Source: Euglena gracilis
Lineage: Eukaryota
NCBI GenBank assembly: GCA_039621445.1
Contig: CP154954.1
Coordinates: 48,091,847-48,155,846 of the forward strand
DNA length: 64,000 nt
Direction: 5' to 3'
Shown: one piece after another, positions 22,662-64,000 of the stretch
Layout of the letters: each line of letters begins with the position of its first letter
Numbering within the stretch: the stretch's first letter is position 1
Notes under the pieces: generated by a model
The model's database searches: none
What the model saw: only the letters and a program-made list of their open reading frames with translations
What the model was told of the DNA's origin: nothing
Translations under genes and position numbers: made by a program

Positions 22662-22705
22662 ATGTCAGCCGAGGCAGCGTCTGAAGGGGCATCTCCGTAT
22701 GTGGA
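22662..22705 (+). CDS. Probable first coding exon [14 protein letters not shown](D)
   Basis: Removing 22706-22803 (GCAGCC...GGCTGC stem) joins it in frame to exon 22804-22901 ([33 protein letters not shown]). Confidence 0.6.
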
Positions 22706-25055
22706 CTGCAGCCTCCACCTGCCTCCAAAAAATGAAAAGCAATCAAACATGTTTATTGTGTATGAATCGGGATGGAAGGTCGCTGTCCACCTGGGCTGCC
22801 ACTCACAGGCCCCGGCCCGGGCAAGGGCTCCCCCGGCGACACGGAGCACCTGCTGCGCCACCTGGCGGTGACCACGGAGCAGAATGCGGCGTTGGCCTCA
22901 GAGCCAGACGATTGCTTGCCGTGGGCCTGCCCCATGCCGCGGGGAATTGCGCAGGTCCACAACAACGTGGCAAGTGGAATCACCTGAATTATCACGCTTG
23001 GCCACATCAACAATCGTTTCACACATGAACAATCTTTTCACAAAGAATAACTGAAATTGTTTACACAATCATTTAGAATGGATCACGCACTATCACGAAT
23101 TGGCCTCGTTTTGGTAAAAACAGTTCTTTTCAGTAAAAGCATGCCAAATCGTGCAACAGGACACCAAACCACGTAAATCACACACAAAAATGTACAGGAA
23201 TGTTGGTCAGAATGTGTTCACCCTCAAGGAAATTTTCATTTCTTATTGAGGAAACCGCTTTTTTATTTTAGTTTGGTTGCTTGAGTTGTGGGTCAGGGAC
23301 TGCCAAAGTCCCCGATAGTTTAAAATGGAGAAGTTGAGGGACATTGTTTTTGCCAGTGGGAGTACTGCAGTACTCCCCATAGCATTCCCACACTGTACGT
23401 GTTTGTGTTGCTCGAACCACACCAATAATAATAATTCGCCTCAATCCCAAGTTTCTTTCTTCTCTCAAGCCAGGGAAGGTGTATATGCACTGAAAATTAT
23501 CAGAATTATCAGCACGCCAGTGATCCACGTGCATTGCTTATTAATTTTCAGCCTCGCACATCAGAGATCATGCCATAGTATTTTGAAAAAATTAATGTTC
23601 TGAATGATATACTTGTAGCAAAATTAACCCCCCCACCCCACTTAGAAGCCCCCCGGGGCTACTATTCGCTCACTCTGCGGAAAACCCGAGGGGGGGGGCT
23701 TCTAATTGGGTACCCTTTAGCCCCCCCCCCCCCATTTGAAACCCCCCCCCCCAGGTTTCCCGCCAAAAATCCAAATAACAGCCCCCCCCCCCCCCGGCGA
23801 AGCCGGGGGGAAAATTTGACGCAAAAATTTCCGGAAAATGGTGAAAAACTCGAAAATTCTCCACAAAAAAAGGTCGACATTGGGAACAAAAGTGATATCT
23901 GGTATCCTTGAAACATGGCCTATCCACCCAAAAACTAGAATAAATGCGTTCTGCAATTTTTTAAACTTGGACCCCGTTCGATCCCCGGATCGACCGCCGG
24001 CCGAAGGTTTTCCCTTTAGACAAAGTTATTTGGGGGGGGGGCTTCTAATTGGGGGGGTTTATACAAGTTTTTTCGTTTTTCTGCAAAACTGGAATTTTTT
24101 GTCTTGGCAAAAAGTCGCGTACAGCTACCTCCCCCCCCCCCCCCCGGGCGCTTGGCCCCGGGGCGTTTGGCCCCTCTCCTCCTGAAATGCAATTTTGGCC
24201 CCCCTACAGTTGGCCTTCAATTTTGCACATGGCCGCCAAAATTCTTAACATGCAAATTTGGCCCCTTAAGGTTGGCCTCCTGGCCTTACCTTCATTTGTG
24301 GCCCTTTGGCCCGGGCCACAAATGAAGGTAAGGCACTTGGCAGTTGGCCCGGGGAGGGGTGGGAGAGGTAACCCATGCAAAATCATGTGAACTCATGTGT
24401 GTAATTTTTGGTCGCTGGGTTTTTTTATTTGCACCGAGAAGATGGAGGTGAGGTTGGCCAGGATCGCCGAAAGTGTCAAACAGACAAGGAACTTCCTCAT
24501 TGACGCCGTCGAATTTGGGCAACTTCATCCAGACTGGACTGAGGTTGTTTTTGGGCCAGGATCCAAAACAATCCCCTCAGGGGGGTTGTGCCTGCCATGG
24601 GTCCCCTTAGAACAAGGCACCCCCCCCCCCCCCCACCGACCTTGGCGTTGGTGAAAAGAGGCCTGGTGGTGGCAGGGTCGGGTCTGAAGTGAAAATCTGA
24701 AGTTTTCACTAGGACACTCCTCGGGAGGCTGTCAGCAAAGCATTGGTATGGCCCGAGCTCGACGCGCTGCAGCGGAAGCTGGAGCAGTGCGGCCGGGACG
24801 CCGCCGACTTCCGGCGGTCCGTCAGCCGCGGGGGGCGGCAGACCCCGGGGGCGGCGGGGCCCCCGGAGGCCGCGCCGCAGACCGACGACGAAGGCGCCAC
24901 CCCAGCCTGGGCCAGCCACGGGTCTGTTTGCTATGGGCACTTGTTGCCCTCGTGTCCTGATTCCCCTTGGAAGGAAGAAAAGCAAAAGCAAACAGACAAA
25001 CAGACAAACAAGCAAACAAACAAGCAACCAAACAGACAGACATACAAAAATGCAA

Positions 25056-25115
<60 letters not shown>

Positions 25116-25668
25116 GCAAATAAATTAACACGCACGCAAACAAACAAACAGTTAAACAAACTTTTATTTTATTTTTTTGGCATGATTTGATGTTTTTTGT
25201 GTTCGCCGTCACCCCACCCCGTCCATCATCACAAACCGCCCCGTGTGCCGCCCTCTCCCGCCCCCCCGTCGCACCGGCCCCACCGCCCCTGCCGGACGCC
25301 GTCGCCTCCGCGGAGGCCCTCGCCGCACACCACACGCTGCAGTGGCAGAGCGCGGCACAGGGCGTCGCGGCGGCGGCGGCGGCGGCGGACCGGGAGGCAG
25401 CGGCGCGGCGGGGCGAGCGGCCGGCGGCGGCGCTGCGCCAGGCGGAGGAGGAGTGCCGCGACCTGCGGTCCGCCCTGCAGCGGCTGCAGCGCGACGCGGG
25501 CGTGGCGGCGGAGCCAGGGCTGGCGATGCCGATCCTGCCATGGCCGTGCCGCCGGCCCTCCGGCTGTCTGCTGGGGGTCCACACACCAATTGTATATTCA
25601 ATATGTATATATATATACATGTACATATACATATACATATACATACATATATATATATAATATATATA

Positions 25669-25712
<44 letters not shown>

Positions 25713-26013
25713 AGTGTTAAGTTTAGGGCCCCCCCGGGGGGGGTACGAAGCTTGACACCGGGGTGGGCACCCCCTTAATGAAAGGTATAGGGTTAGGTGC
25801 GCACATGCTAATTTAAGTTAAATGGCTGCGTTGCGCTAATAGGCTATGTTGTGAAACAGTGTCGATTAGCGCAACATAGACAAATAGAGAAAATTAGCAT
25901 GTGTGCACCTAACCCTATACCTTCAATAACGGGGGTGCCCAACCCGGTGTCAAGTTTAGTACCCCCCCGGGGGGTACTAAACGTAACACTTGCCATATAT
26001 ATGTACATATATG

Positions 26014-26060
<47 letters not shown>

Positions 26061-26062
26061 GT

Positions 26063-26149
<87 letters not shown>

Positions 26150-29100
26150 GTGTGTGTGTGTGTACACACACACACACACACACAGCAGCGAGATTGGCAG
26201 CGAGATTCTACTTGACCCCCCCCCACCGGGGGGACAAGTAGAATCTGCAGGGGGGCCAAATTTCTTTTTACGTTAACGATGGAGCAGGGTTAGGGTTAGG
26301 AGCATACATCTCTCTGAGGTTTTGCGACCCCCCCCCTGGGGGGGCGGCTGCAGCCAGCCCCGATTTGGGCCCAGCCCAGCCGCAGCAGCCCCCTCCCCCC
26401 GGGGGGGGGGGGGTGCTGCTACCCATAGCTACCCAGACCTTTTTGGGGGTCCAGCCCAAAAGTTTTCCGCGGAAACCGCCGAAATTTTTTTTGAAAAACT
26501 GTGTTCAAAACTGGCCAAACATGGGGTTTGGGGGGCGTTTGGGGCATTTTTGCGGGGTTTCAGATGCATCATTTTTTTCAAAACTGTGTTCTGCAGGTCA
26601 TTTTTGGGCATTTTTCCGTTTTAAATCCAGCTCGCCCCGGTTCGGGTCCAGCCGGGGTCCAGCCCCCCCCCCCCCCCGGGGGGGAGCTAGCCAGCCCAAA
26701 TTTCTAGCCCTAACCCAGCAACCCCCCCCCCCGGGGCCTTAAAGAGAAGTATGGTTAAGGGTTTGGCCTGGCTTTAGGCCTGACTTGCACACCTAACACC
26801 CGTCCATAAGTTAGGCCTGAAGTTAGGCCCAACTCCTGACCCTAACCCCATTCCATTCATAACGCAAAATTTTTCGCGAACCCCCCCTGGAGATTCTACT
26901 TGGCCCCCCCAGGGGGGCCAAGTGGAATCTCGCTGCCATACATATTACAATTATATGCCTGTATTGTATTATAATATACATACACACATATTAAAAATAC
27001 AACTGTATATACAATATACAATTGTGTATACAATTGTATATTGCATTGCTGGTGTAGGTTGTCTGCCTGCGTTGCGAGTGTGAAGTGGAAGCTGTGTGGC
27101 TTTCCTCCCACGCGGCAGGCCGATTTGTGTTGAAACGCCAGTTCCCTTTTTCTTTCAATGGACAAACGTCGTCCGTGGAATGATGAGCAACAGACGGTGA
27201 ATTCCACGCGCGCCGTGTGCCGTTTGTCACGTGACGTGGACTCTGGGAGAGCACTGGCTTCCAGTTGAAGGAGCTGGCGGTGGTGAAGAAGAGAACGTTG
27301 GCGAAGGAAATCGGGGCCCTGGAGGCGAAGGTCCGCGATGGTGAGGCGGAGGTGGCGGCGCACGCCCGGGAGCTGGCGGCCTGTACGGGTCGGCCAGCCA
27401 GCCCTTCGCCCACAATGGTTTAGCTTTGGATCGCGGCAACGGGTGGCAAGGGTTGCGATGGTTTGCGTTGTCTTGCAGGGCGATCCAACGCAACTGTTGG
27501 CACTGTGCATTTTGAAATTTAACACAAAAGATCAGCCAAACATTCTGAATGGCATGTGTGTGGGAGGATGACTGAGAACTCGCTGACTAGGGCTGACTAG
27601 GGTGAAAGCCGGAAACCCTTTGGGTGTGGGTGGGGTCGACCCCCCACCCTTCCTAGTTTCAAGGGCCCCATTTTTGTGTCCAGAATTTCCTTGGCACCTT
27701 CCTCACCAATCAAATTTTTTTTGTGAAGTGCGACCCCCTCCCGCCTCCACCTCCACCCTCCGCCCGGATGGGGAGTCTGCCCCCCCCCCCTGCCAGCCCT
27801 CCCGTTGCCAGCCCTCTTCCTTGAGGGGTCAGGTTCCCAGGGTGTGCGATCTGGCAGGCGACTAGCACAAGCGATGAGGTCCTGGCCCTGGCCGCACGGG
27901 TGGCGGCCATTCGACACGCGCCCCTACTACCACCCCCCCTTCTCACTCCACCTATCAGACGGTTCCATCGACCCGGGTGTGGGCATCCACTAAGCTTTAT
28001 GAGACAAATACCTCATTATCGCACCCAATTTCTTCGTAATCTCCATCTGCTGCCAGTGGCGACCCCCCGCCTGTCCTCATCAACTTTGCCACACCCGCCC
28101 TCTTTTGGCGAAAGAATTTTCATTACCCCCCCCCCCACGTTTGGCGGGATACTTAGGCTACCTTATCTTTCTAAAAGGCCTTTGATTTTCCGTCCTTTTC
28201 AGTGGGCTCCGACGCGCTTCTCCACGATCCCTGCTTCAAGGCTCACCTCCAAACAGGAAATCGCATCCCCCAGGGGAGGCGGTATGACTGGTGCGGAATG
28301 TTTTTCTCACGAGGAAGTGGAATCTAAGGAACACATTGACCAAGGGCAATTTTTATTTTTTGCGAAGGTGTGCCAATGAAGAATTTGCATGCCCATGGGG
28401 CGCTCAAAGGGAACATGCACAAACGTCCCCCTCCCTTCTTTCCATCCATGGAGTATCAACATTTTTTTGTTTGTTCAAGCTTTGGGACACTGCACACTTT
28501 GGGAAGGTGTTGCAGCCGCTTGGTGGTGCTGGTGCAGGAAAAAAGAGGTCTTGCCCTCCGACCCGGCCCTTACGCTAGCCAACAGAGAACGAGTCCACAG
28601 ACAGAGGCGGAATCCAGCCAGGCCAAAGAGGGCTACGAAAGGCACCACACAAACCGCCACAGTGCACACAGGGGGTGGGCTTGCACCCAATGGCATGGGG
28701 TCGCCCATCTGCTGCCCAGGGTGGCTGCAGTTGCCTGCAATCAGCTGAGTCCCGGCGTACAGCTGCGGAGCAGGCGGCAACGTCAGGGCCCAATGGGACC
28801 GGCATGGGATCCCCGTTTGGCATGCAGTTAAGGGAATGAGGTTTTTTTATCTTCTCAAAGGTATTCCTTAATGTTCTCCGTAAACCAAACGAAGCAAAGG
28901 AAAAACGGGCGACCCGAGGCTGGGTCAAAATCCCAAACAGGAAACGCAAACCAGTCCCCCCCCCTTTTTCATTGGATGAGAAGTGTTCGAAGGGCACCAG
29001 AAACCACTTTTGTCCCCGGTGCCGATCCGCCGCTGTCAAAAATATTTTCGCCCCCCCCCCCCCAACACCAACGAAGGTCTGGGGATGGCAAGGCTTGCTT

Positions 29101-32100
29101 GCTTCGGTCACCCCCGGATCGCCTTGCGGGGGGCGCCGGCCCGCCCCCACCCCCTCCCCATTCCGCCCTGCACAGCAATCCTGCGCGAGGAGCTGGCGGC
29201 CGCCCAGCGGCGGGCGGTGGAGCTGCTGGCCCAGGCGGAGGCGCACGGCGCGACCGCCCACCCGGCTGGCGGTGGACCCCCCGCCGGGGAGGGGGGCCGT
29301 TGGGGAGGGGTTGGAGGCGTTGAAGGCCGGGCTGGCCACGCTCTGCGGCACCAGGTCCCCAGCCAGGATACCCCCCCCCCCCCTTTATTGACCGTGGATG
29401 GGGGGTGAACCTGCGAAGGGGTACCGGCCAGACACCAACGTGCCCCCTCCCTTTTCCTCTTCCATGCTGCTGGGTGGCATTTTCCTTTTTTTTTTTTTGT
29501 CGAAGAACAGCTTTGGCAGCCCACTTTTTTGTCCCATTTTTTTTGCCAGTTTCGGATGTGCCGTTAGGCACCAGAGACCCCCCCCCCCCGCCCTTCCGCC
29601 AGCCCGGGTGTCTGCACCGCCGCCCTCCGCCGGGCAGAGCAGCAGCGGGACGAGGCGGAGTGGGGCCAACGGGAGGCGGAGCGGCAGGCGGGCGGACTAC
29701 GGGGACAGCTCGCGGAGGCACAGCGCGAGGCGGCCGCCCTGCGGGAGCGCCTGCGGGCCCTCGCGGCAGCGGAGGCGGCCGGCGCCACACAAGCCAGGGA
29801 GCGGGCGCACGCGGACCGCCAGGCCCCTGGCCTCCCGCGGGTATGGACCCCTGGTTGGCTTGCTGTGGGGGGGGGGCACGGGGCATGGCGGAGGACCAAT
29901 TTACCTCCCCCTTGTCTAAGCACCACCCCCTGGTTCTTACCCAACTTCTCAAAGGTCATCTTCTCGGGGAGACTTATTTTGTGCGCGCTTTAGGGAAAGT
30001 TTCTCGAAAAATTTGAAAATTTAGAAGCTTTTGAAGCCTGATTTGGTGGGACATTGTTGATTTTTGCATCCAAGTGCAGCAGTGGACCATCAAAATAGGA
30101 GAAAATTTTCCTTTTCGGCGCGAACCACCAAATTTTTTTGCTGTCAAAAATTTCCCCCTTGTCTAAGCACCACCCCCATGTTTGGAAAATTGAACACCCC
30201 CCGGTTCTTACCCATCATTACCCGGAGCCGTCCATTTCGCCTTGGTTTCCGGCAGCCCAAATTGTTATTTTATTTTTTCTTTCGATCTTTGAGAGCCCCC
30301 GCGGTTGCCGGCACTTTTTTTCCAGACTGGAGTCACTTGGCCCTACAAAATGCCCGTCTGGAAAATACCAGCAACACAAGACCGCCACAATTGCAGTTTT
30401 GGTCCTCTGGCCACGGTCGGGTCCCCAGTGCGAAAGGCTGTGTTCTCCCATTGGCGCAGCGGGCTGGCGGGTGGGAGGCCGCCGACCGGCTCGCGGCCCA
30501 CGAGGCGCAGTGGGCGGCACTGCAGGCGGCGACTGCGGCGCAGCACGCGGCCCAGCTGGCGGCCGTGGAGGGCCGGCACGCCGAGGCCGACCAGCGGCTG
30601 GCGGACATGCCCGGGGCCGCTCCCGATGTTGCAATCGTCTCCCACCCTGCCCTTCGCTTCGTACTCCGATGATGGCTTGTGCGGCCCCGGCGAGCCATCG
30701 GTGTCCATCCGGCACATATTACAGTTTGGGGGGTTGGCATTGCGGGTCCACAGCGAACGGCCCTGCCGGCGGCGGAGCGGTGCCGCGCCCTGGAGGCGGA
30801 GCTGGCGGGGGAGCAGCGGCTGCGGGGGACGCTGCAGGACGAGCTCGGGGAGGCGGAGATGACGGCCGCCGCCCGCGAGGCCGCGGTGGCGGACCTTCGG
30901 GCCCACTCGCCGCGTTGCTCCCCAAGGACGGTGTGGTGGGCGGGCGCAGGGCTGAACGGGGATCCCCGAAACCCTGTGGGTGGTGGATGGTTGGGGGCGG
31001 CCCATTGAGGCAGGGTTGAAGGGACCCCCTTCTGCGGATCTGCCGAGATGTTGCTAAAATGCAAAAAAGAAGCAATTCCGAACAATGAAGAATTTTTCGA
31101 ATTCACCGTTTGTCACGGACCATCCCCGAAGTTTGATCACCTCAAACTGTGTAAGCGCGGAATACATTGAAGCATTTTCACCCCCCCCCCCTTGTATGAA
31201 AGATGTGTGCTGCAAGGAAAATTGAAGTGACCTGGGTGTGCAGCCACAGTTGCAAGCCACGGCACCCATGTTTCCTCGATGCAAAATGCAGCAGAATATC
31301 CCGCAATGTTTTGTTTTCCTTCCCGAATGATGAGTTCGCCTGTGCGACACATGAAGGTCATGCTGACTGGAAAGCATTTTCACACCACATCAAAAGGCAG
31401 CTTGCTTGCATCCTACCTGTGAAAGAAAATTTAAATTGAAACGTTATTTATAAAATTGAAATTTTAATTTGAAAATTTACAATTTAAAAGAGCATTTATT
31501 TTGTGGCACAACTCCTTCGCCTCACGCTCATGGCTCTGTAATATTGTTTTTTGGGTCTCAATATCAAAATGCCCACCAATTTCCCCATTTCTCTCGCAAG
31601 GCTCACAGCCACCACAGCAACACGGTGGCGCCGCCTGCAGGCCGCAGAGGAACAGCTTGCGGGTGCCCATCACTCCTCCTCGGCGCGGCTGCAGGAGGCT
31701 GAGGAGCGTGCGGCACTCGCAGGACCACTGTCATTGAACAAATTGGACCACTCTGGATTAAATAGTTTTGGAGGGTGCACAACCGTTTCTCTCGCGAGGC
31801 TTGCACAAAAATGGGTTCATTCGCCCCAGGGCGTTCCAAGAGGGACAGGGCTTTTTTCTTGGAAAGGAGCCACCAAGGCCAAACTGGGACTCAAACAGTG
31901 TCAAAAATTAAAAGTCGAAAAACTCATTTTTTGAGCTTCTGGCTGGTTTGGCGATTGTCCAAGGATGCCAGAAATCACTTTTTTTTTCCAGATGTGGACC
32001 TGTTTTGCCAAAACATGGCCATTTTTTGGCCATTCTTCCTCTGATTTTTTCATTGATCGCGTGCTCGGACATCAGAGTTTCTTTTTTTTTTTTTGCTTAA

Positions 32101-53100: not shown

Positions 53101-56100
53101 AACCCTGCCCCCAAGCTTGTCTGAGCCAGGGCCTCCCCCCGGCCAAGGCGGAGGCGCTGCGGGCGGCGCTGGAGGGGCAGGCCAGCGCTCTGCGGGAGGC
53201 GGGGGAGGCCCAGCGCGCCGCCGCGGGGGACGCGCTGGCGGAGCTGCACCGCCGGCTGGATGTTGCTGCGCGGGACGGCGAGGCGGCTGCGGCGGCGCTG
53301 GCGGAGCTGCGGCAGAGCAACGGCCGCGCCCGGGGCGGTGCTGTCGCCCAACCCCCCCTCCCCCGGTTCGTGTCCACGGAGGGTGGGTTTGTGGTCCAGC
53401 CCGTTGTTTCCGGCCCTCGACTCCCGGACTGAAATCCGTCCCAAAATTTCACCACACTCGGTTGTTATTAATTGCCCACGTCGCCCAACGTTCACTCTTT
53501 TGAGCCGCACTGCACTGCGTTTCTTTGCAGTTTAAAACTGTATTTTTTTTAACACGGGGAACGCTGAGCGCAGCCCCGGCCCTCTCGTGGCAGAGGCCTC
53601 CGAGTTACAGTGCACTGTGGCGACCGCCATTCTGCTCGCTGGCAGGATTGGGTTCAAGCCTTCGCTCACCCCCACACCCCCACACCCACACACAGAGCCA
53701 AACGGCCCACACGACCCCTTTTGCAGTGTGTGCGAGTGCACAGACCTTTATGCAACTAACGGGCATCGTTTTGAAGGGCAGAAAGTCAGACCATCTGTGC
53801 ATATGCGTTTTGGCCCACAATCGACTGCTTGATTTTCTTGACGCTCCATCCCCTTCAAAAAGTCTGAAGAAACCTCTTGAGTGGCATTCTGGGACGCTCT
53901 GCGGCTTGTACAATGTACTGTGACAGCAGGGTCTTTCTTCCTGGAGGGGACCTTACCCCCCGGAGGGGGTCCAGCCAGCCATCACTTTTTTTTCCAGCCG
54001 GCACCCCCCGTGGCCTGCTGAAACAAAAGTTGGGTCCAGCCTGGCGAAGCAGGGCAGGAAAAAAAATTTCGGCGCAAGTGCGGGAAGTTTTTGAAAATGG
54101 GGTCAAAATGGCCAGAAATGGCCATTTTGACCTCCTAATTTGGCCGAAAAATGCACACCCAGATGGATTTGGGCTTTGTAGGGCATTTTTTTGGGTCCAA
54201 CTGTCTGCCGGCCGGCCGGAATCAGAGGCGGGGGTCCAGCCAGCACCTTTTTGCAGCCGGCCCACAGGACCCCTCAGTGACCCTATAATACAACCCCCCC
54301 CCCCCCCCAAAGTGGGTGTGGGGCCCCCACAGCCACGCCATTGGGGGCCCCATATGGGGTGGGTGTGCCCGGTCCCAAAAAAAAAACCTTCCCCCCCTCT
54401 TGACGGTGGCCGCCGGGTGGCGGGCCCGCAGCTGTTGGAGGAGGGCCGGCAGGCGGCGGAGGCGGCCGCGCTGCGGGACCAGCGGGACGCCGCCGCGGCG
54501 GAGGAGCGGGCGGCGCTGCAGAGCCGGCTGGCGGCCCTCGAGGCGCAGCACACCGCCGCCCTGCGAGAGCTGGCGTCGCCCCAGGGTCCCCACAGGTGAC
54601 CGGGGGGGGGGGGGCGTGGCGTGCTGAACTTTCAGCCGGCGGGCTGGTGGGCGGCGGGATACTGCCATCCGTGGTCCCCTGCACCAACCGGCTTCATCGG
54701 AGGTGGTGTGATTGCGCAGCCGGATCGTCTGTGTCCCTACCATACGGACATGCAAGCAGGTGCCCCCAAAAAAGAGCCTTGGCCACCGCACTCATGATGC
54801 GGTTGCCAAGTCTTTTTCCTGCATTGTTTCAGCCAAGTCCAGGGATAGCTGAGAAGATTTTTTTCGGGGGGTATTGAGCATAGGGAGGTATAGATTTTTT
54901 TTGGAAGTCACCAGAGGGTTTCTGGCACCAGCCAATGATCGCCTCCAATATCTGCAGACTGAATTTGAAGTGGTCACTACTGGGCAGTCCTCCGTTGGGC
55001 AAAGCTATGTATGCATTTTGGTGAGGAAGCTGAACCAACGCCATATGCTTGAGCAAGCAAAGGGAAGGTTAAAAACGTCATGGGATCGATGGGATGACAA
55101 ACTTCGAAGGAGGCTCGAGATTTGGGAACCTCGACAGCGTGCACATGGTGATCCATTCAAGGAGTCATGCGGGAATTCAACACCTTCCTCCTCCTTTTGT
55201 GGCTGGTCTGCGTGATTTTTGTCTATGTATTTCTTCATCATTTTTCTCCAGGGTGCCAGTGTGGAATTTCGATTTTTTTTTGTATTTTTGTGGTTGGGAT
55301 CAATCAGGCTTCTTTAGAGTCAAAAGAAACCTCCCTCGGGGTCCTGGTCTGGAGGCGAGGTGTAGGTTTCGGCGCGTAACGCCGAATTTTTTTTTGGGAA
55401 ATGGTCTCAGACGGCCCGATTTTTGGCCTCCCCCCCCTGGGGGGGGGACCGGGCTGGCTGGGCTGGGGGACCCCCCCGGGTCTGAACCCTGCTTGGGAGA
55501 ATCATCTGTAAGTGATTTTTTTGGTGCTTGTGTTCACATCAGATATTTAAGGGGCGTGGTGTGGGTCCGGATCCCCCCCTTCCCCTGGGGGTCCTTAAAA
55601 AACCTCTGGCTCATATGACGGAGCACTGTAGGCGAGAGGGAAGCAGCGATCCAGCGTGCCTCCGTTCTTGATGGCTGCGTGGGCCAGCCCACTGTGTCTT
55701 GCACCACATTCAGCACCTCAAAACCCAGCTCTGGCTGCACACTTCATGCACAGATCACCGCACACATACCCCACCCCCCCGACCCACACAACGTACACGC
55801 CATGCGCCTGGTGAAGGCGGGCACCCCATTCCCATGACACAGCTCGCTGACGCCAACGATGCACATGCCATGTGCCTCCGGTGGCTGCAGCACGCTGAGC
55901 AGGCTGGGCGCACCGCTCTGGGGACGGAAGAGCGGCTCGGCCGGACTGACGCGGAGCAGCGCCTCAGACGGGAGCTGCGGGAGCAGAAGGACCGCGCGGC
56001 GGACCAGTGCCGGAGGGCGGCGGACCGGTGCGCGGCGGAGGAGGCGGAGGGCCGCGTCGCGCTGATGCTGGAGTGCTGGCAGCCGGCCAACACCCCCCCC

Positions 56101-59100: not shown

Positions 59101-62100
59101 TCGTGTGGCGTGAAGCAGGCGATGCAGGCGTGGCAGCAGCAGGCCGCAGTGGTGGAAGGGGAGCGGGCGGCGGCGGTGGCCGCTGAGAGTTCCGTGGCAT
59201 TGGGACGCCCCGTCGAGGACCTGTCTGTCTTTCTGTCTGCCTTCCTGTGCTGTCGAGGTTGCCTGCTGTTCGCACTGGCCGAGGTTTGGCTTGCCCCGGT
59301 CCATTGGCCTGGCCGACGTGTCACGTCCAGTCTCCGGTCCCCCCCCGGGCTCAATTCTCTGCCTTGGCTTCCGCGGCCAGCCACGGGACCCTCTCCCAGG
59401 CTGCAGTGTGCGGAGGGCGACCTCGAGGCCGCGCGGACCGAGGCGGCCTCCCTGGCAGTGGGGCACGCGGCAGCCGTGGCGGAGGCGCAGGTGCTGCGGG
59501 ACGGCCTCGACACGGCGGAGCTGGAGCTGGACCACCGGCGGGAGGAGGTGGCGAGGGTGGCGCGGGAGCTGCGGGCGGCACGGGACGGCTGCCTCACGCT
59601 GGAGGAGGAGCTCCTGGCCAGCCTTGGGCGAATCTGCCGGTGGGAAATCGCGGGCCAACCTTCTCTTCTGGACATACTCACTGTGCACGCCATGCCCGCC
59701 ATGCATTACCATTTTGAGGCTTATTGTTAAAACTTTTGCACTGCGGTCGGACAGTTTTGGGGAGCGGAGAGCTTTGTCTCTACACTGGCTTATGCGAGGG
59801 TGACAGTGGTACAACTTGGGCTGTCCTCCCGTTGCCACTGGCCCTCCTTTGGGTGCCGGGGAGGTTGCTGGGAACCTGCCGCCCACCAGTCGGGAGGGTC
59901 GCCCCGGGGTGCGCCGGACGTGTCGGGAGCAGCTGGCCGGCGCCGAGGCCCGTGCCCTAGAGCTGGAGCAACGTGTTGCCGCCCTCGAGGCTCGGGTCCT
60001 GGCCGCCCCCGGCCGAGCCAATGAGGGGAATGGGCACATGGCAGACGAACACCCACAAAATCCGGAAGCAGCTTCCCCCGTCATTGTTGAGAAGCCAGGC
60101 TCTTTGCTCTACCCTCTCTGCTTTGCCCCGCATGCACATCCACTGTTGCCAACAGCCTCACCCAGGAAGTTTTCTTGTGTGAGAGAAACAGTCCAAATAC
60201 TGACTTCAGTTAGATGCAAGGAGCGGGGTGTCCACTTAATTTGAGATACGTGCCAGGAAGGCCAGCGTGGTGGTGGATGTTGCATTCTTTTACACACACT
60301 CTGCACTCTCATGTCATCTCTGTCTTTCTCTCCCTGAAACTTAGGCGGCGCGAATTGCCCAACCAATTTTTGCGTTTTTTGGCGTTTTTTGGCTGTTTTA
60401 AAAATACCTAAAAGGGCAAAAAGGTTTGAGCTGAGAGGGGTGTGTGGCGGCTTTGGACCAAAATTTTATGAAAGTGGTTTTGCGCGGTATTCCGCTTAGC
60501 CGATTTCCGATTGCGTGTGAGTTGTGTGATTTGGGAGTGTACTGGAACTGTTTGAAATGGCTGAAAAACACTGACTTTGAATGGGTGTGGCATGGGGCTG
60601 TGTGTCCGTGGTTTATGTTAATAACAGTATCTGAGAGACGAGTGAACAATACAAGTGTGTGCGGATAACCGCGTAAAACGAAAGAAGAGGTGACAGACAA
60701 CGGAGTTAAACGTTTGGGCGGTAATCCGCGCACAATGCACTTGTACGCGGATAACCGCGTACAAGTGCAAACAATGCATGGTACCCGGATTACCGCGTAC
60801 AATAACACAAACAGTTGATGACTGGTGGGAGGGAATCCGCCTGGTATGTGTGTATACGTGTTGAGTGTAAGGCGACTGGGTGTAAGCGGGAATCCGTGTG
60901 GCCGGGTTAAGGGTAGCAGCGTTTGTGGACGATGGGATGGGGGGGGGAGATGGAAACCACCCTAGAAATGAAGCCTGTTGGTTTGTTGAAAAAGTTTTGC
61001 AACCCTACTTGTGACACCAGTCACAGGCGTGAATCTTTGCGGAGTACACCGACGACAGACTTTGTTGCCAGGTCGCCAGGCAGTTTGCAACTGAATGGCG
61101 TCTGGCGTGTTGTGGTGAGTCTGAGGGGTGGAGGTTTATGAAACCAGGGAGAGGAGATTGAACCAGCAGGGGTTGACCAACCGAGGACAGACGGCCAGCC
61201 CTTAAACTTGGGCACTCAGAGCAGGGGTGGTTTCAAAAAGAACCGGACACACTTGTGTCGAGAGTGGTTAGATGGATGGAAGCCAAATGCACCGGGTCAA
61301 ACATCGACCCGGCGTTGGTTGAGAACGACCGCCTTCTGGTTTACCCCCCCTCCCACACGGCTTCTGACGGTGGAGACCACCGTTGCCTCCTCCGGAGGCA
61401 TGTTGCCAACCCCGAAGGAAGAAGAGCCAGAAAAAAAGAGGTGGTTTGGGCATTTTGCCTGAAATTCAGCAAAAACTGCAGCTTTTCAAAGGAAAAATAC
61501 TGTAACACTGTTTCAAAAAACAATTGAAAAGGCCTTGATTTTCTCAGAACCTGGAGGACTTCTTCCGAAAACCCCCCGAAATTGTTCGACTGCTGCCACC
61601 AACTGCTGAAACAGGAGTTTCTCCGTCCATATCTTGAATCACTTCTTCGTCAGCCTTCCCCAAACCCTGATTTTGGGCCACCAAGACCGTTGGGTTCCAG
61701 GAGGAGGGCTCTGGGAGGTGCTTTTGTTCCTCCTGAGAAATCAACCTCAGTTTTTTGGCCGTTTTTCGGGACGGTAACAAAATATCTTCTCTACCGCAGC
61801 TTGCGCTATCTTCGCTACCGCAGGTGCTTGCTGTCACGGCGCAGCAGCCACAGCTCCCTTTCAACCTGTCCCGACCAACTGTCAAAAACGATGTCGCCAC
61901 ACGTCACCACTGACACCGACACTTTGGGACACCAAAACATCACAAAACACAACCCATCGCGACAGCAACAAGCTCCACGCGGGTTTCCGCCCAAACCTCA
62001 TCTGTGCGGAAACCCGCGCAAACTAAAAACGAAGTAGGCGGATAACCGCGCACTGCCATCGTTCAATAACGACCCAAAATCCCCTCCCTCTCCCCCAAAC

Positions 62101-62886
62101 CTGTTCATTAACAACTTCACGTGATGACCCACTTCTGGAGGTTTCAGCGTGTTCCCACTTCACGCTCCCACGTGTCATCCACAAACACGAACTGTTCTCT
62201 TTCTCAAAAACTTCTGCGCGGGTTTCCGCCTGAGAGATCATCACTTCTGTACGCGGTAAACCGCCTACCCTCATTTTTACCTTTATTCCCAGTCCAGTCC
62301 CCTCCATTAAGGCAACATCTCTTCATCACAAAAACTCATTTTGTGCGGTTTACCGCCTAAAACATCTCTTCCAAGAAATTATAGCATCTGTTGGGCAGCG
62401 TTGTCTGTTCACCTTCCCCGTCACTGGACATCGGCACTCATGAGATGTCCAAAAATGCGCGGGTTGCTTAAGCGGTTGCCTCTTCTTCACCTGCCACACC
62501 GTGTCACCCCCCCTCCAGAGGGGGGGTCCGACAGCAACGCCAAACAACCTGGGCTCCGGTGGCCAGGTGTTCTCCGGCTGTTTTCTGTTTTTCAAAATTT
62601 CAGGGCGTTCCAGGGGGGTGTTTTCCAAAACCCCCCCTAAAACGACCATAAATTCTCAATATCGACACTTTGTCAAAATGCTTAAAATGGACCCTTAACG
62701 ACCCAAATTTTCGTGCTGGTGCCATCCTCACAAAATTTCGAGCACATAACAGTGAGTTTCGTAAACGGAAACCCGCGCACCCCAAGCGTGCAAAAAATCG
62801 CAAAAAATTTGGGCAATTCGCGCCGCCTAAGTGAAACACGCGCGCGCACACACACACCACACACACGCACGCACGCACGCACGCAC

Positions 62887-62917
<31 letters not shown>

Positions 62918-63248
62918 CCCACGCACGCGGCCCGAGGAGAATTCGCTGGAGGAGAAGGAAACAAAAGACCACACACAAAACACGCCAGAGCAACAGAGAG
63001 AGTCCAGCCCCACGCACGTGCTGAGGCCACCTCAACTCACACAACAGAGAACACGAGACACGCACACGCACACGCAGAAGAGCGAGGAGAGAGACTCCTA
63101 ATCTCACGCAGAGACACACTTCCCACTCATCAGCAGACGAGAGAGAGGAGAGAGCGAGACGAGAGACCCCCCGAGAGAGACGCATGAGAGATACAGAGAT
63201 GAAGGAGAGAGAGCGAGAGAGAGAGATAGAGAGAGAGGGAGAGAGAGA

Positions 63249-63322
<74 letters not shown>

Positions 63323-64000
63323 GGAGAGGCAAGGCGAGGGGCGCTGTCGGAGATGCAGGCCACTCAGGAGGAAGCCACAGGCAGACATCAGGAAGAGGGG
63401 CAGCGCTGGCACGCTGAACAGGAGCAGTGGGCACAGGAGCGCCGCTCGCTGGAGGAACGCCTGGCGGAGGAGGCGCACCACAGCGGGGAGCTGTTGGACG
63501 CCCTGGAGAGCCTGGCCGCCCAGTCCGCTCCCCCCAGGGCCCCGCCCCCACCCGCCAGAGCGGCGGCGGGCCCGAAGAGCGCCATCGTGCACTTGCGTGA
63601 AACCTTGGCAGCGCTCGCCCTGCCGTTATTCCAACTCGCACACACCCCGGTGTCACTCCCTCCGAGCCACCGGGTTGGTTCCTCCCGTCGTCGTACACAT
63701 CCGTGCCCACAGACAGGCCGGGGTTTGGCCCTGGACATCGGGGTGGCTGGGCCCTGCCATCACCGGGGGCCACGCCCCCGAGTCCCGCCGCCGCCGCCGC
63801 CGCCGGGCCGTCCTCCGGGGCCGCGTCTCCCTCGCGGGGCGGGGCGGCCGAGGAGTGGCGGGCCCAGCAGGAGGCGCTGCTGCAGCAGGTGCGGGACCTG
63901 GAGCGGGCGCTGGAGCGGACGTCGCTGCAGATGCTGGAGCTGAACCCGACGACGGAGCAGCAGGTGGGCCCCTCCCACTGCCCTGGCACCCCGGACGCAT
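22662..64000 (+). CDS. Giant multi-exon coiled-coil protein (roughly 2,500-3,000 aa in the window, 3' end outside it); likely structural/cytoskeletal
   Basis: Dozens of short GC3-rich exons encode heptad-like A/E/Q/R/L peptides ([72 protein letters not shown]). ATG in caacaATG context at 22662. About 26 distinct junctions join in frame when terminal-stem introns are removed. Several junctions (24.9-25.3, 27.9-28.6, 33.3-34.1, 48-50, 56.1-56.9 kb) remain unresolved. Confidence 0.85.
25709..25994. mobile_element. Foldback MITE with GGCA...TGCC ends, inserted in (TA)n
   Basis: GGCAAGTGTTA / TAACACTTGCC; nearly fully palindromic; TA repeats on both sides. Confidence 0.85.
26196..26937. mobile_element. 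GGCA...TGCC TIR element with a nested insertion
   Basis: GGCAGCGAGATTC / GAATCTCGCTGCC; adjacent to (CA)n/(TA)n tracts. Confidence 0.7.
28612..28732 (+). other. Nonconventional intron
   Basis: ATC-CAGCCA ... TGGCTG-CAGTT; spliced product [13 protein letters not shown] is in frame. Confidence 0.7.
29256..29615 (+). other. Nonconventional intron
   Basis: GCC-CACCCGGCTGGCGG pairs with CCGCCAGCCCGGGTG-TCTGC; C|G and C|A junctions; in-frame GAT-TAALRR. Confidence 0.8.
30609..30770 (+). other. Nonconventional intron
   Basis: GCC-CGGGGCCG / CGGCCCTG-CCGGC; AT|G gives in-frame [10 protein letters not shown]. Confidence 0.75.
30905..31632 (+). other. Nonconventional intron
   Basis: ACT-CGCCGCGTTGCT / AGCAACACGGTG-GCGCC; C|GC gives in-frame [12 protein letters not shown]. 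Confidence 0.75.
32745..33176 (+). other. Nonconventional intron
   Basis: GCG-CAGGGGGCGCC / GGCGACCCCTG-CCGGC; CT|A gives in-frame [12 protein letters not shown]. Confidence 0.8.
34312..34697 (+). other. Nonconventional intron repeated in every array unit
   Basis: GGC-CAGCCGAGCCCCTTC pairs with GAAGGGGCCGGCTG-CCAGC; AC|A gives in-frame EEEAT-LLSDK. Confidence 0.85.
34852..35205 (+). other. Second repeated intron (GT start, non-AG end; 5' site ambiguous, 34852 or 34903)
   Basis: GTCCAG ... CTGGAC-CG; both candidate donors are in frame with exon A. Confidence 0.65.
39808..40171. mobile_element. TIR element filled with a G-rich minisatellite, in an array intron
   Basis: GGCATAAAGTGGAGCCCCCACAGT / ACTGTGGGGGCTCCACTTTACGCC; internal GTGTGGGGTGACAGTGGGGGGGA repeats. 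Confidence 0.85.
42492..43268. mobile_element. Second, longer copy of the G-minisatellite TIR element, with an extra ~250 bp central segment
   Basis: Same TIRs and same intronic position as 39808-40171. Confidence 0.85.
50852..50979 (+). other. Nonconventional intron
   Basis: ACC-CACGGCCCGGGG / CCCCGGCCCGTG-CCGGC; AC|A gives in-frame [11 protein letters not shown]. Confidence 0.8.
52702..53107. mobile_element. hAT-like MITE, TIR CAGGGTTTGATATAAGGA, TSD CCCCCAAG
   Basis: 17/18 TIR and exact 8-bp TSD. Confidence 0.9.
54982..55633 (+). other. Nonconventional intron
   Basis: GGG-CAGTCCTCCGT / ACGGAGCACTG-TAGGC (10/11 pairs); in-frame [12 protein letters not shown]. Confidence 0.8.
56998..57439 (+). 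other. Nonconventional intron with a relic 8-bp direct repeat
   Basis: AGGCC|GGC-CAGGC ... GCCTG-AGGAC|GCC; flanks match 6/8; in-frame GEA-AKHEKQL. Confidence 0.75.
57801..58207. mobile_element. CAG...CTG TIR element with TTTTTGCA repeats
   Basis: CAGGGGGGCAATATGCAACTTG / CAAGTTGCATATCCCCCCCCCCTG; TSD degenerate. Confidence 0.7.
58331..58638. mobile_element. hAT-like MITE, TSD CCCCCAAT
   Basis: CAGGGTTTTTTT / AAAAAAACCCCTG termini and exact 8-bp TSD. Confidence 0.85.
60340..62831. mobile_element. ~2.5 kb TIR DNA element with apparent 5-bp TSD (TGAAA); no recognisable transposase
   Basis: CTTAGGCGGCGCGAATTGCCCAA / TTGGGCAATTCGCGCCGCCTAAG; TGAAA on both flanks; repeated GCGG-N4-CCGC palindromes. 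Confidence 0.85.
62845..63318. repeat. (GCAC)n and (GA)n simple-repeat block
   Basis: Direct observation. Confidence 0.9.

What the first reader, a model, noticed from the sequence alone, without database searches (positions are those of the whole stretch)
22662..63960. Giant coiled-coil gene decodable only by terminal-stem introns
Seen: the stem plus 3/5 rule gives in-frame joins for introns 22706-22803, 22902-24755, 27392-27858, 28612-28732, 28781-29175, 29256-29615, 29817-30471, 30609-30770, 30905-31632, 32745-33176, 34312-34697, 34852-35205, 50325-50719, 50852-50979, 51161-51609, 52483-53140, 53328-53583, 53622-54427, 54982-55633, 55682-55854, 56998-57439, 57484-57650, 57691-58732, 59182-59400, 59616-59916 and 60001-63348. 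Stems covary (CAG/CTG, CAC/GTG, CGG/CCG, GAG/CTC, CGC/GCG), so structure rather than sequence appears to be read. Standard gene finders would miss this gene.
Basis: partly seen in the sequence, partly recalled or inferred. Interest (0 to 1): 0.75.

Follow-up and report, generated by a model that had tools for sequence, protein, structure and literature searches.

The report
Euglenid coiled-coil gene with nonconventional introns

Summary
The + strand from about 22.7 kb to the window end holds one long gene whose introns lack GT-AG ends. They carry a short helix that starts 3 nt inside the 5' end and 5 (once 6) nt inside the 3' end. This is the published Euglena nonconventional-intron code, N3-CDG...CH'G-N5-6|R (PMC12501133).

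- 8 are exact.
- 3 are off by 2-13 nt per end but still in frame: 34852-35205 is 34840-35217, 51161-51609 is 51154-51611, and 59182-59400 is probably 59186-59395.

Eight of its 27 "exons" have stops in all frames. Its 15-kb "exon" is really 11 copies of a ~1.15-kb tandem unit. Each full unit has two exons and two introns and encodes a 131-aa helical module. More small exons follow the array.

Copy 8 carries a stop codon and a 1-nt insertion, which is unresolved. No Pfam family or clear homologue was found.

Verdict: a new member of a known kind. It is a good example, not a new mechanism.

The parts
22663..64000 (+). Span of the gene as far as the window shows it. The 3' end is open at the window edge.
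   Evidence: Codon-usage-like segments trained on RNA-supported exons: 46 on the + strand, all between 24.7 and 64 kb, against 3 on the - strand. Segment list. The frame is still open at 63787-63966 and beyond.
34170..47550 (+). Tandem array of 11 copies of a ~1.15-kb unit. Ten full units each hold exon A (142 nt), intron I2, exon B (251 nt) and intron I1, which gives 393 coding nt or 131 aa per unit.
   Evidence: Pairwise divergence among copies is 0.7-1.2% in exons and 1.4-2.5% in introns. Gap columns: 1 of 394 exon columns against 19 of 767 intron columns.
34312..34697 (+). CAGCCG/CGGCTG stem.
   Evidence: Homologous borders. The junction is supported at the last copy (47041-47419) by an X4 contig whose 134 loose letters end with the exon B tail (table 7). 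Stem score 7.0.
34840..35217 (+). The stem reaches 14 bp in most copies. It recurs in 9 further copies.
   Evidence: X4 contig letters between 47562 and 47900 (tables 5 and 5c). Register found. Per-copy coordinates and stem scores of 7.2-9.9.
44703..44720 (+). Lesions in exon B of copy 8: AAG to TAG at 44703 and one extra G near 44720.
   Evidence: Alignment of four copies. Frame break seen. Whether this is an assembly error or real is not resolved.
39834..40128 (+). G-rich minisatellite expansion inside I2 of copy 5. A second one at 42517-43223 sits in I2 of copy 7. They lengthen I2 from about 378 nt to 765 and 1171 nt.
47562..47868 (+).
   Evidence: Joint 47560>47868 in X1, X2 and X4. Register.
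47987..48229 (+). CCGG stem.
   Evidence: Joint in X1, X2 and X4. Register.
48270..48837 (+). Non-slidable, with a TGGTGG/CCACCA stem.
   Evidence: Joint in X1, X2 and X4..
51154..51611 (+). Non-slidable, with a CGC/GCG stem.
   Evidence: X4 record 16 runs 50979-51153 and then 51612-51768 with no letters between (table 8)..
51769..52312 (+). Two introns, 51769-51982 and 52004-52312, around a 21-nt micro-exon at 51983-52003.
   Evidence: X4 record 16 has 21 unplaced letters between 51768 and 52313. The micro-exon position is inferred from stems scoring 7.4 and 7.1 and from the open frame.
52483..53140 (+). GAGGCCC/GGGCCTC stem.
   Evidence: X4 record 16 joins 52482 to 53141..
53328..53583 (+). 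Non-slidable, with a CGGGGC/GCCCCG stem.
   Evidence: Contig pieces end at 53327 and start at 53584 (table 8)..
53622..54427 (+). CGCCA stem.
   Evidence: X4 record 16 has 37 letters between 53327 and 54427. Slide analysis.
54982..55633 (+). CAGT.CTCCGT stem.
   Evidence: Joint 54980>55634 in X1, X2 and X4, and in 1 raw RNA read of X21. The length accounting keeps the frame.
55682..55854 (+). Non-slidable.
   Evidence: Contig pieces start at 55855 in X1, X2 and X4, with the 48-nt exon 55634-55681 before them. The minimum-energy fold pairs the two ends.
59186..59395 (+). N3/N6 register with a 10-bp stem including one G-U pair.
   Evidence: Pieces of X1 record 6 and X4 record 17 start at 59396. 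The donor is inferred from the stem and the open frame.
59616..59916 (+).
   Evidence: X2 record 14 has exactly 84 letters, matching exon 59917-60000, between 59615 and 63349.
60001..63348 (+). CGCCCC/GGGGCG stem. It holds high-copy repeats and (GA)n and (CGCA)n arrays.
   Evidence: Joint 60000>63349 in X2 and X4, and in 1 raw read of X21..
22706..34311 (+). 5' part of the gene, with 10 reader introns not testable with RNA here. Seven look sound by the stem rank test: 22902-24755, 28612-28732, 28781-29175, 29256-29615, 30609-30770, 30905-31632 and 32745-33176. Three look misplaced by a few nt: 22706-22803, 27392-27858 and 29817-30471. At least four more introns are unlisted, inside 24756-27391, 31633-32744 and 33177-34311.

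Best explanation
The window holds most of one nuclear gene of a euglenid (Euglena-type) organism on the + strand, from about 22.7 kb to beyond 64 kb.

Gene structure. By my estimate, the gene is split into roughly 60-70 small exons of 21 to about 260 nt. All introns anchored by RNA are nonconventional. They lack GT-AG ends. The two ends of each intron base-pair, and the helix starts 3 nt inside the 5' end and 5 (rarely 6) nt inside the 3' end, which brings the two splice sites together.

Mechanism. According to the literature, this helix at fixed spacers is the cis signal, the introns can leave as circles, and the machinery is unknown. These steps are inferred from papers and were not shown here.

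Product. The protein is a long alpha-helical, probably coiled-coil protein of about 3,000 aa or more (my estimate). Its centre is 10 to 11 near-identical 131-aa modules encoded by a 13-kb tandem array in which the introns were duplicated together with the exons. The cellular role is not shown. From its composition and its likeness to long coiled-coil tethers and scaffolds, a structural or cytoskeletal scaffold role is my inference.
For: Splicing and expression:
- Contigs of three runs from three studies (X1, X2, X4) skip the introns, and a 2085-nt contig chains 12 or more exons on the + strand. Single raw RNA-seq reads of X21 show three of the joints.
- The RNA-supported exon chains translate as open frames of 151, 298, 91 and 158-165 aa in exactly one frame each.

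Intron type:
- Across 13 RNA-supported introns the mean contiguous Watson-Crick run is 4.3 at register 3/5. It is 1.2 or less at registers off the helix diagonal and 1.06 for mismatched 5'/3' partners (156 pairs).
- The 4 non-slidable junctions have runs of 6, 3, 6 and 4.
- 0 of 16 RNA-anchored introns can be GT/C-AG, and 14 of 16 have a purine as the first exon base.
- The RNA-supported junction is rank 1-3 of 642 in-frame alternatives within +-15 nt for all 8 confirmed reader introns.
- The rule equals the published code (PMC12501133: abstract and sections 5, 7, 11, 12; PMC11170887: section 10).

Repeat array:
-. Indels among the copies fall in introns (19 of 767 columns) and not in exons (1 of 394).

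Protein:
- Exon B (82 aa) is predicted as one helix, pLDDT 97.2.
- Heptad (3.5-residue) power exceeds shuffles in the 131-aa unit (0.55% of 2000 shuffles reach it) and in chain 4 (none of 2000 reach it).
- The nearest language-model clusters are HOOK, GOLGA2, ERC/CAST and TACC fragments.
Against: - Copy 8 of the array has an in-frame TAG and a 1-nt insertion. As assembled, the reading frame is therefore not continuous.
- RNA continuity is shown only from the last repeat copy to about 56.1 kb and from 59.4 to 63.5 kb. It is not shown across the whole 41 kb.
- Runs X1, X2 and X4 are labelled 'RNA?' by guess only. The certain RNA run, X21, gave one read per joint.
- One RNA-inferred intron (54577-54928) has no good helix at register 3/5.
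- Two stretches of the X4 contig (32 and 24 letters, near 48993-49492) were not found in the window, and some contigs diverge at 50235-50243. Paralogues or strain differences therefore exist.
- Heptad periodicity is not significant in 3 of 5 segments.
- Only 5 of 16 introns fit the strict CDG/CH'G motif.
- There is no homologue of known function.
Confidence: 0.88

Rival explanations
1. The locus is not one intact giant gene. The stop codon and frameshift in repeat copy 8 are real, so either the protein ends there (about 1,500 aa) and the downstream exons belong to a second cistron or an untranslated tail, or this copy of the locus is a decaying paralogue or allele.
For: - TAG at 44703 plus a 1-nt insertion 17 nt later, only in copy 8.
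- Some RNA contigs diverge from the window at 50235-50243 and carry letters not found in it, which suggests a second related locus.
- Euglenozoan mRNAs can be cut out of longer precursors by spliced-leader trans-splicing (background knowledge; outrons are mentioned in the PMC11170887 abstract).
Against: - Downstream exons keep long open frames with the same codon style for more than 1,000 codons.
- A single spliced contig links the last repeat copy to exons as far as 56.1 kb.
- Two lesions within 17 nt in a 97-100% identical array are what a local assembly error would look like (inference).
- Apart from copy 8, exons carry no indels.
Confidence: 0.12
2. The skipped segments are not introns. 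They are artefacts, such as reverse-transcriptase template switching or chimeric contig assembly at short repeats.
For: - Most junctions are slidable by 1-3 nt, that is, flanked by short direct repeats.
- The contigs are de Bruijn assemblies.
Against: - Four junctions have no direct repeat at all.
- The same joints appear in runs of three studies.
- Every join restores one open frame.
- The ends carry inverted repeats, not direct ones, at one fixed register.
- The same behaviour was shown genetically in Euglena (PMC12501133, section 7).
Confidence: 0.02
3. The introns are removed by the ordinary spliceosome using degenerate splice sites, and the terminal helices are leftovers of MITE-like insertions with no role in splicing.
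For: - A transposon origin of the terminal inverted repeats is discussed in the literature (PMC12501133, section 12).
- Whole-intron folding is no more stable than shuffles (z = -0.01 and -1.17), so only the ends are special.
Against: - The helix sits at one exact register relative to the observed cut sites. A passive relic need not do that.
- No intron has GT/C-AG ends.
- Point mutations in the CAG or CTG triplet abolished splicing in the published knock-in assay (PMC12501133, section 7).
Confidence: 0.05

Closest known systems
Nonconventional introns of Euglena nuclear genes (noncanonical splicing code 5'-N3CDG...CH'GN5-6|R; Nomura et al. 2025, PMC12501133; Gao et al. 2024, PMC11170887; Milanowski et al. 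2014/2016 and Guminska et al. 2018, seen in the search listing only)
   Same: - No GT-AG ends.
- The helix starts at +4 and ends at -6 (once -7).
- A purine starts the downstream exon in 14 of 16.
- CAG/CTG, CGG/CCG and CGG/CTG stems are present.
- Many junctions are slidable.
- The introns are removed in RNA.
   Different: In this gene only 5 of 16 RNA-anchored introns fit the strict CDG/CH'G triplets. The paper gives 61.2% genome-wide in E. agilis. The rest use CGC/GCG, GAG/CTC, TGG/CCA, CAC/GTG, CCG/CGG and CAA/TTG, usually with 5-14 bp helices. The sample is small, and the species may differ from the one in the paper.
Long coiled-coil scaffold and tether proteins (HOOK, GOLGA2/GM130, ERC/CAST, TACC); Pfam PUMA_CC (PF24627)
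   Same: - Ala/Glu/Leu/Gln/Arg-rich sequence with little Pro or Gly.
- Exon B is predicted as one uninterrupted helix.
- Heptad signal in parts.
- Nearest language-model clusters are of this kind.
- PUMA_CC is the best Pfam match for exon B.
   Different: - No match reaches a curated cut-off: PUMA_CC scores 24.7 bits against 30.1.
- The exhaustive search of 1.84 billion representatives gave 4 weak hits. The best real one (P0002) is 65% identical over 48 aa and of unknown function.
- The 131-aa module repeated 10-11 times at about 99% identity has no counterpart found.

Membership tests
Euglenid nonconventional intron | Borders are not GT/GC-AG | tested here: met
0 of 16 RNA-anchored introns can be written GT/C-AG at any equivalent slide.
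Euglenid nonconventional intron | [quoted passage not shown] | tested here: met
   The register scan peaks only at 3/5 (mean run 4.3 of 13; 4.8 for the 4 non-slidable). Fifteen use N5 and one uses N6. One RNA-inferred intron (54577-54928) does not fit.
Euglenid nonconventional intron | CDG ... CH'G triplets (CAG/CTG and derivatives) | tested here: inconclusive
The paper itself finds the motif in only 61.2% of such introns (PMC12501133, section 11).
Euglenid nonconventional intron | Purine as first base of the downstream exon | tested here: met
   14 of 16.
Euglenid nonconventional intron | Actually removed from RNA | tested here: met
   Joints in contigs of X1, X2 and X4, and single reads of the RNA-seq run X21.
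Euglenid nonconventional intron | Excision as a circle by a non-spliceosomal machinery | not testable with these tools
   Taken from the discussion of PMC12501133 (section 12).
Coiled-coil protein | Long uninterrupted alpha-helix | tested here: met
   Exon B: helix over residues 2-81 of 82, pLDDT 97.2, single-sequence model.
Coiled-coil protein | Heptad periodicity of hydrophobic residues | tested here: inconclusive
   Significant in 2 of 5 segments (the 131-aa unit and chain 4) and not in chains 1-3.
Coiled-coil protein | Self-association of helices | not tested
   No complex prediction was run.
Pfam PUMA_CC (PF24627) | Score at or above the curated gathering cut-off | tested here: not met
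   24.7 bits against a cut-off of 30.1.

The most novel reading that the evidence does not exclude
Two things are not excluded.

(1) In this gene most spliced nonconventional introns (11 of 16) lack the CDG/CH'G triplets that the published code calls critical, yet they keep the exact 3/5 register. The machinery may therefore measure a helix of almost any sequence at fixed distances from the cut sites, with longer helices making up for a missing CAG/CTG. That would make it a structural ruler rather than a sequence code.

(2) The 13-kb array shows introns and exons being amplified and homogenised together as one 1.15-kb unit. This would be a way for nonconventional introns to multiply without transposition.
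Probability: 0.3. Interest if true: 0.5.

Novelty: new member of a known kind. Interest (0 to 1): 0.3.

Why it matters
- Annotation: a published splicing code, read by eye, placed 8 of 11 RNA-testable junctions exactly and the other 3 within 13 nt per end in a gene that GT-AG-based gene finders would not assemble. That is useful for annotating euglenid genomes.
- Test cases: the gene offers a compact natural panel of spliced introns with non-CAG stems for testing how far the code is structural.
- Evolution: it gives an example of exon-intron modules amplified in tandem.
- Limits: it does not reveal a new mechanism, and the protein's function remains unknown.

Tried and rejected
- **Rule-based exon chaining.** I wrote a dynamic program using codon log-odds, stem score and frame. 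Benchmarked on the 3' part, it recovered only 3, 4 and 4 of 11 RNA-supported introns in three settings. I do not use its models as evidence, apart from the 21-nt micro-exon whose length the RNA contig matches. My stem score was parameterised after I had seen the RNA-supported set, so searches are partly circular.
- **Protein homology.**
  - The representative search with exon B gave 4 weak hits. P0001 looks like a compositional match to a bacterial repeat protein. P0003 and P0004 are generic repeats.
  - Pfam on 10 exon translations and on 10 upstream ORFs gave nothing above cut-off.
- **RNA families and genome.** Rfam and tRNA scans of the window were empty. No whole genome is held for this window.
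- **Run search.** 'No RNA holder listed' on record. The holders were guessed RNA.
- **Unplaced contig letters.** I looked in the window for the letters that the contigs carry between joints. Only the 17-mer of the repeat unit was found. The 32-, 24- and 40-letter stretches were not found at up to 2 mismatches, so exons between 48994 and 50160 stay unresolved.
- **Whole-intron folding.** Two introns fold no more stably than shuffles.
- **Literature.** A search for this gene (Euglena gracilis, coiled-coil, tandem repeats, nonconventional; 11 papers held at least 3 of the 4 terms, 10 were listed) found no description of it. Supplementary tables of the two intron papers were not seen and could list this locus.

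Full report
**What the window is**

The sequence is GC-rich eukaryotic DNA with homopolymer tracts and microsatellites. No tRNA or Rfam family is present, and no whole genome is held for it. The listed introns begin NNN-CAG-like and end CTG-like-NNNNN. This is the signature of nonconventional introns of Euglena. The published code is 5'-N3CDG...CH'GN5-6|R(exon); such introns make up 71.8% of Euglena agilis introns, and 61.2% of them fit the code (PMC12501133: abstract and sections 5, 7, 11, 12 read). In E. gracilis the consensus is CCAGG at +3 to +7 and CCTG at -9 to -6, with terminal pairing (PMC11170887: abstract and section 10 read). I infer a euglenid origin from the intron type. The run table keeps the organism coded.

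**Check of the listed introns in the sequence**

- All 26 have complementary triplets at register 3/5. Of these, 21 have three Watson-Crick pairs and 5 have one wobble or mismatch.
- With a simple position-weighted stem score, 22 of 26 score 4.3 or more. Of 20,000 random position pairs in the region, 0.47% reach 3.9 and 0.17% reach 5.
- All 15 introns flanked on both sides by a recognisable coding-like segment join them in frame.
- The joined product is not an open reading frame. Eight of the 27 implied exons have stops in all frames, and two more change frame internally. The list is a partial model.

**RNA test**

The run search found 19 runs holding 8-24% of the words of 50300-60200, one run holding 78%, and raw RNA-seq runs of the same species label. 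I laid X1, X2 and X4 (contigs; 'RNA?' by guess; three studies) and X21 (raw RNA-seq; about 5% of the run read) on 47400-63990.

- The contigs skip the introns. One 2085-nt contig of X4 chains at least twelve exons from the last repeat copy to 56081. One X2 contig chains 59408-59615, an 84-letter piece and 63349-63541.
- Eight are exact: 34312-34697 (through its homologue 47041-47419), 52483-53140, 53328-53583, 53622-54427, 54982-55633, 55682-55854, 59616-59916 and 60001-63348.
- Three are off by 2-13 nt per end, all still in frame:
  - 51161-51609 is 51154-51611.
  - 34852-35205 is 34840-35217.
  - 59182-59400 has its acceptor at 59395/59396 and most likely is 59186-59395, with an N3/N6 register.
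- For 50852-50979 only the acceptor side is consistent.
The eight right ones score 5.1 or more.
- X21 gave only one read for each of three joints. Low-depth unspliced contigs also exist.

**Is the helix real and in register?**

- For 13 RNA-supported introns I scanned every combination of 5' spacer 0-8 and 3' spacer 0-10. The mean contiguous Watson-Crick run is 4.3 at 3/5. It decays along the same helix diagonal and is 1.2 or less elsewhere.
- For the four junctions with no positional freedom the runs are 6, 3, 6 and 4 (mean 4.8).
- Pairing each 5' end with the 3' ends of the other introns gives a mean of 1.06 (156 pairs).
- None of 16 RNA-anchored introns can be written GT/C-AG. Fourteen are followed by a purine.
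- Among 642 in-frame alternatives within +-15 nt, the RNA-supported junction has the best stem in 7 of 11 cases.
- By the same test, 12 of the 15 untested reader introns rank 1-2. Three (22706-22803, 27392-27858, 29817-30471) rank 7, 20 and 8 and are probably misplaced by a few nt.
- My stem score was tuned after I had seen the RNA set, so this is partly circular.
- Whole introns are not unusually stable (z = -0.01 and -1.17), but the minimum-energy folds pair the two ends.

**The rule is necessary, not sufficient**

A dynamic program of my own combined stem score, frame and codon usage trained on the other half of the gene. It recovered only 3, 4 and 4 of 11 RNA-supported introns. 'Decodable only by terminal stems' overstates what the stems alone can do.

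**The '15-kb exon'**

- 34170-47550 is a tandem array of 11 copies of a ~1.15-kb unit at 97-100% identity.
- Carrying the two intron types into each copy, and using the RNA-supported borders for I2, gives exon A of 142 nt and exon B of 251 nt.
- I2 has a helix of up to 14 bp. In two copies it is swollen by G-rich minisatellites to 765 and 1171 nt.
- Copies differ by 0.7-1.2% in exons and 1.4-2.5% in introns. Indels lie in introns (19 of 767 alignment columns) and hardly in exons (1 of 394). This fits the exon-intron partition.
- The one exon indel is in copy 8, which also has AAG changed to TAG 17 nt upstream. As assembled, the frame breaks there. I cannot tell an assembly error from a real lesion.
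Introns 47562-47868, 47987-48229 and 48270-48837 are RNA-supported. The stretch from 48994 to about 50160 is unresolved, with contig letters that I could not find in the window.
- Extra introns also lie inside 51769-52312 (around a 21-nt exon), at 54577-54928 (inferred, and not fitting register 3/5), after 56081, inside 58733-59181 and after about 63523.

**The protein**

- RNA-supported exon chains give single open frames of 151, 298, 91 and 158-165 aa rich in Ala, Glu, Leu, Arg and Gln, with 5-7% Pro plus Gly.
- Exon B folds as one helix (pLDDT 97.2, single sequence).
- Heptad periodicity beats shuffles in the 131-aa unit and in one 3' chain, but not in three other chains.
- No Pfam family reaches its cut-off. 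The best is PUMA_CC at 24.7 bits against 30.1.
- Two word-index searches found nothing.
- The exhaustive representative search gave 4 weak hits. One of them, P0002, is 65% identical over 48 aa and then runs on in a way that resembles read-through into an intron. That suggests a homologous exon in some other genomic record.
- The nearest language-model clusters are generic long coiled-coil proteins.
- Coding-like signal of this gene's type is confined to the + strand from 24.7 kb on: 46 segments against 3 on the - strand. Ten upstream ORFs have no Pfam match.

**Verdict**

This is a real, expressed, very long gene for a helical repeat protein whose introns are euglenid nonconventional introns. 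The kind is known and its code is published, so this is a new member of a known kind. Two points go slightly beyond the published picture. One is the high share of spliced non-CAG stems at the exact 3/5 register (11 of 16). The other is the tandem amplification of an exon-intron module. Both rest on a small sample and on contig-level RNA evidence.

Noticed in passing
window 10000-12000: A tract of about 2 kb that is strongly purine-rich on the + strand (GC skew 0.57, AT skew 0.45), made of G-runs and A/G-rich irregular repeats. No gene signal was found there.
   Followed up: partly
window 23640-24050 (inside intron 22902-24755) and 12468: Short element ends of the form G-run + CTTCTAA occur 4 times in both orientations, against 0.37 expected by chance. 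They sit next to long C- and G-homopolymers. A similar string appears in an RNA contig's unplaced letters near 49846-50001. This looks like a dispersed repeat or MITE-like family inside introns.
   Followed up: partly
window 52386-53493, 57372-58479, 60142-62911: These intron stretches have summed contig depths in the hundreds to thousands in X1, X2 and X4, far above the exons. They are high-copy repeats present in many transcripts or loci.
   Followed up: no
window 51571-51588 and 57737-57757: Long C-run and G-run tracts give 'opposite strands' joints and homopolymer loose ends in the raw reads. This is most likely a homopolymer artefact and not a rearrangement.
   Followed up: no
window 34000-48000: The sense strand of the whole tandem array is G-rich (GC 0.65-0.70, GC skew 0.17-0.37). 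It includes (GTGGGGGGAGT)n-like minisatellites in two I2 copies, so G-quadruplex or R-loop potential on the non-template strand is conceivable.
   Followed up: no
window 63139-63318 and 62836-62928: (GA)88 and (CGCA)n arrays lie just upstream of the acceptor of the 3348-nt intron.
   Followed up: no
window 50235-50243: Contigs of X1 and X4 match up to here and then continue with letters not present in the window. One joint goes to 53146 with 40 foreign letters between.
   Followed up: partly
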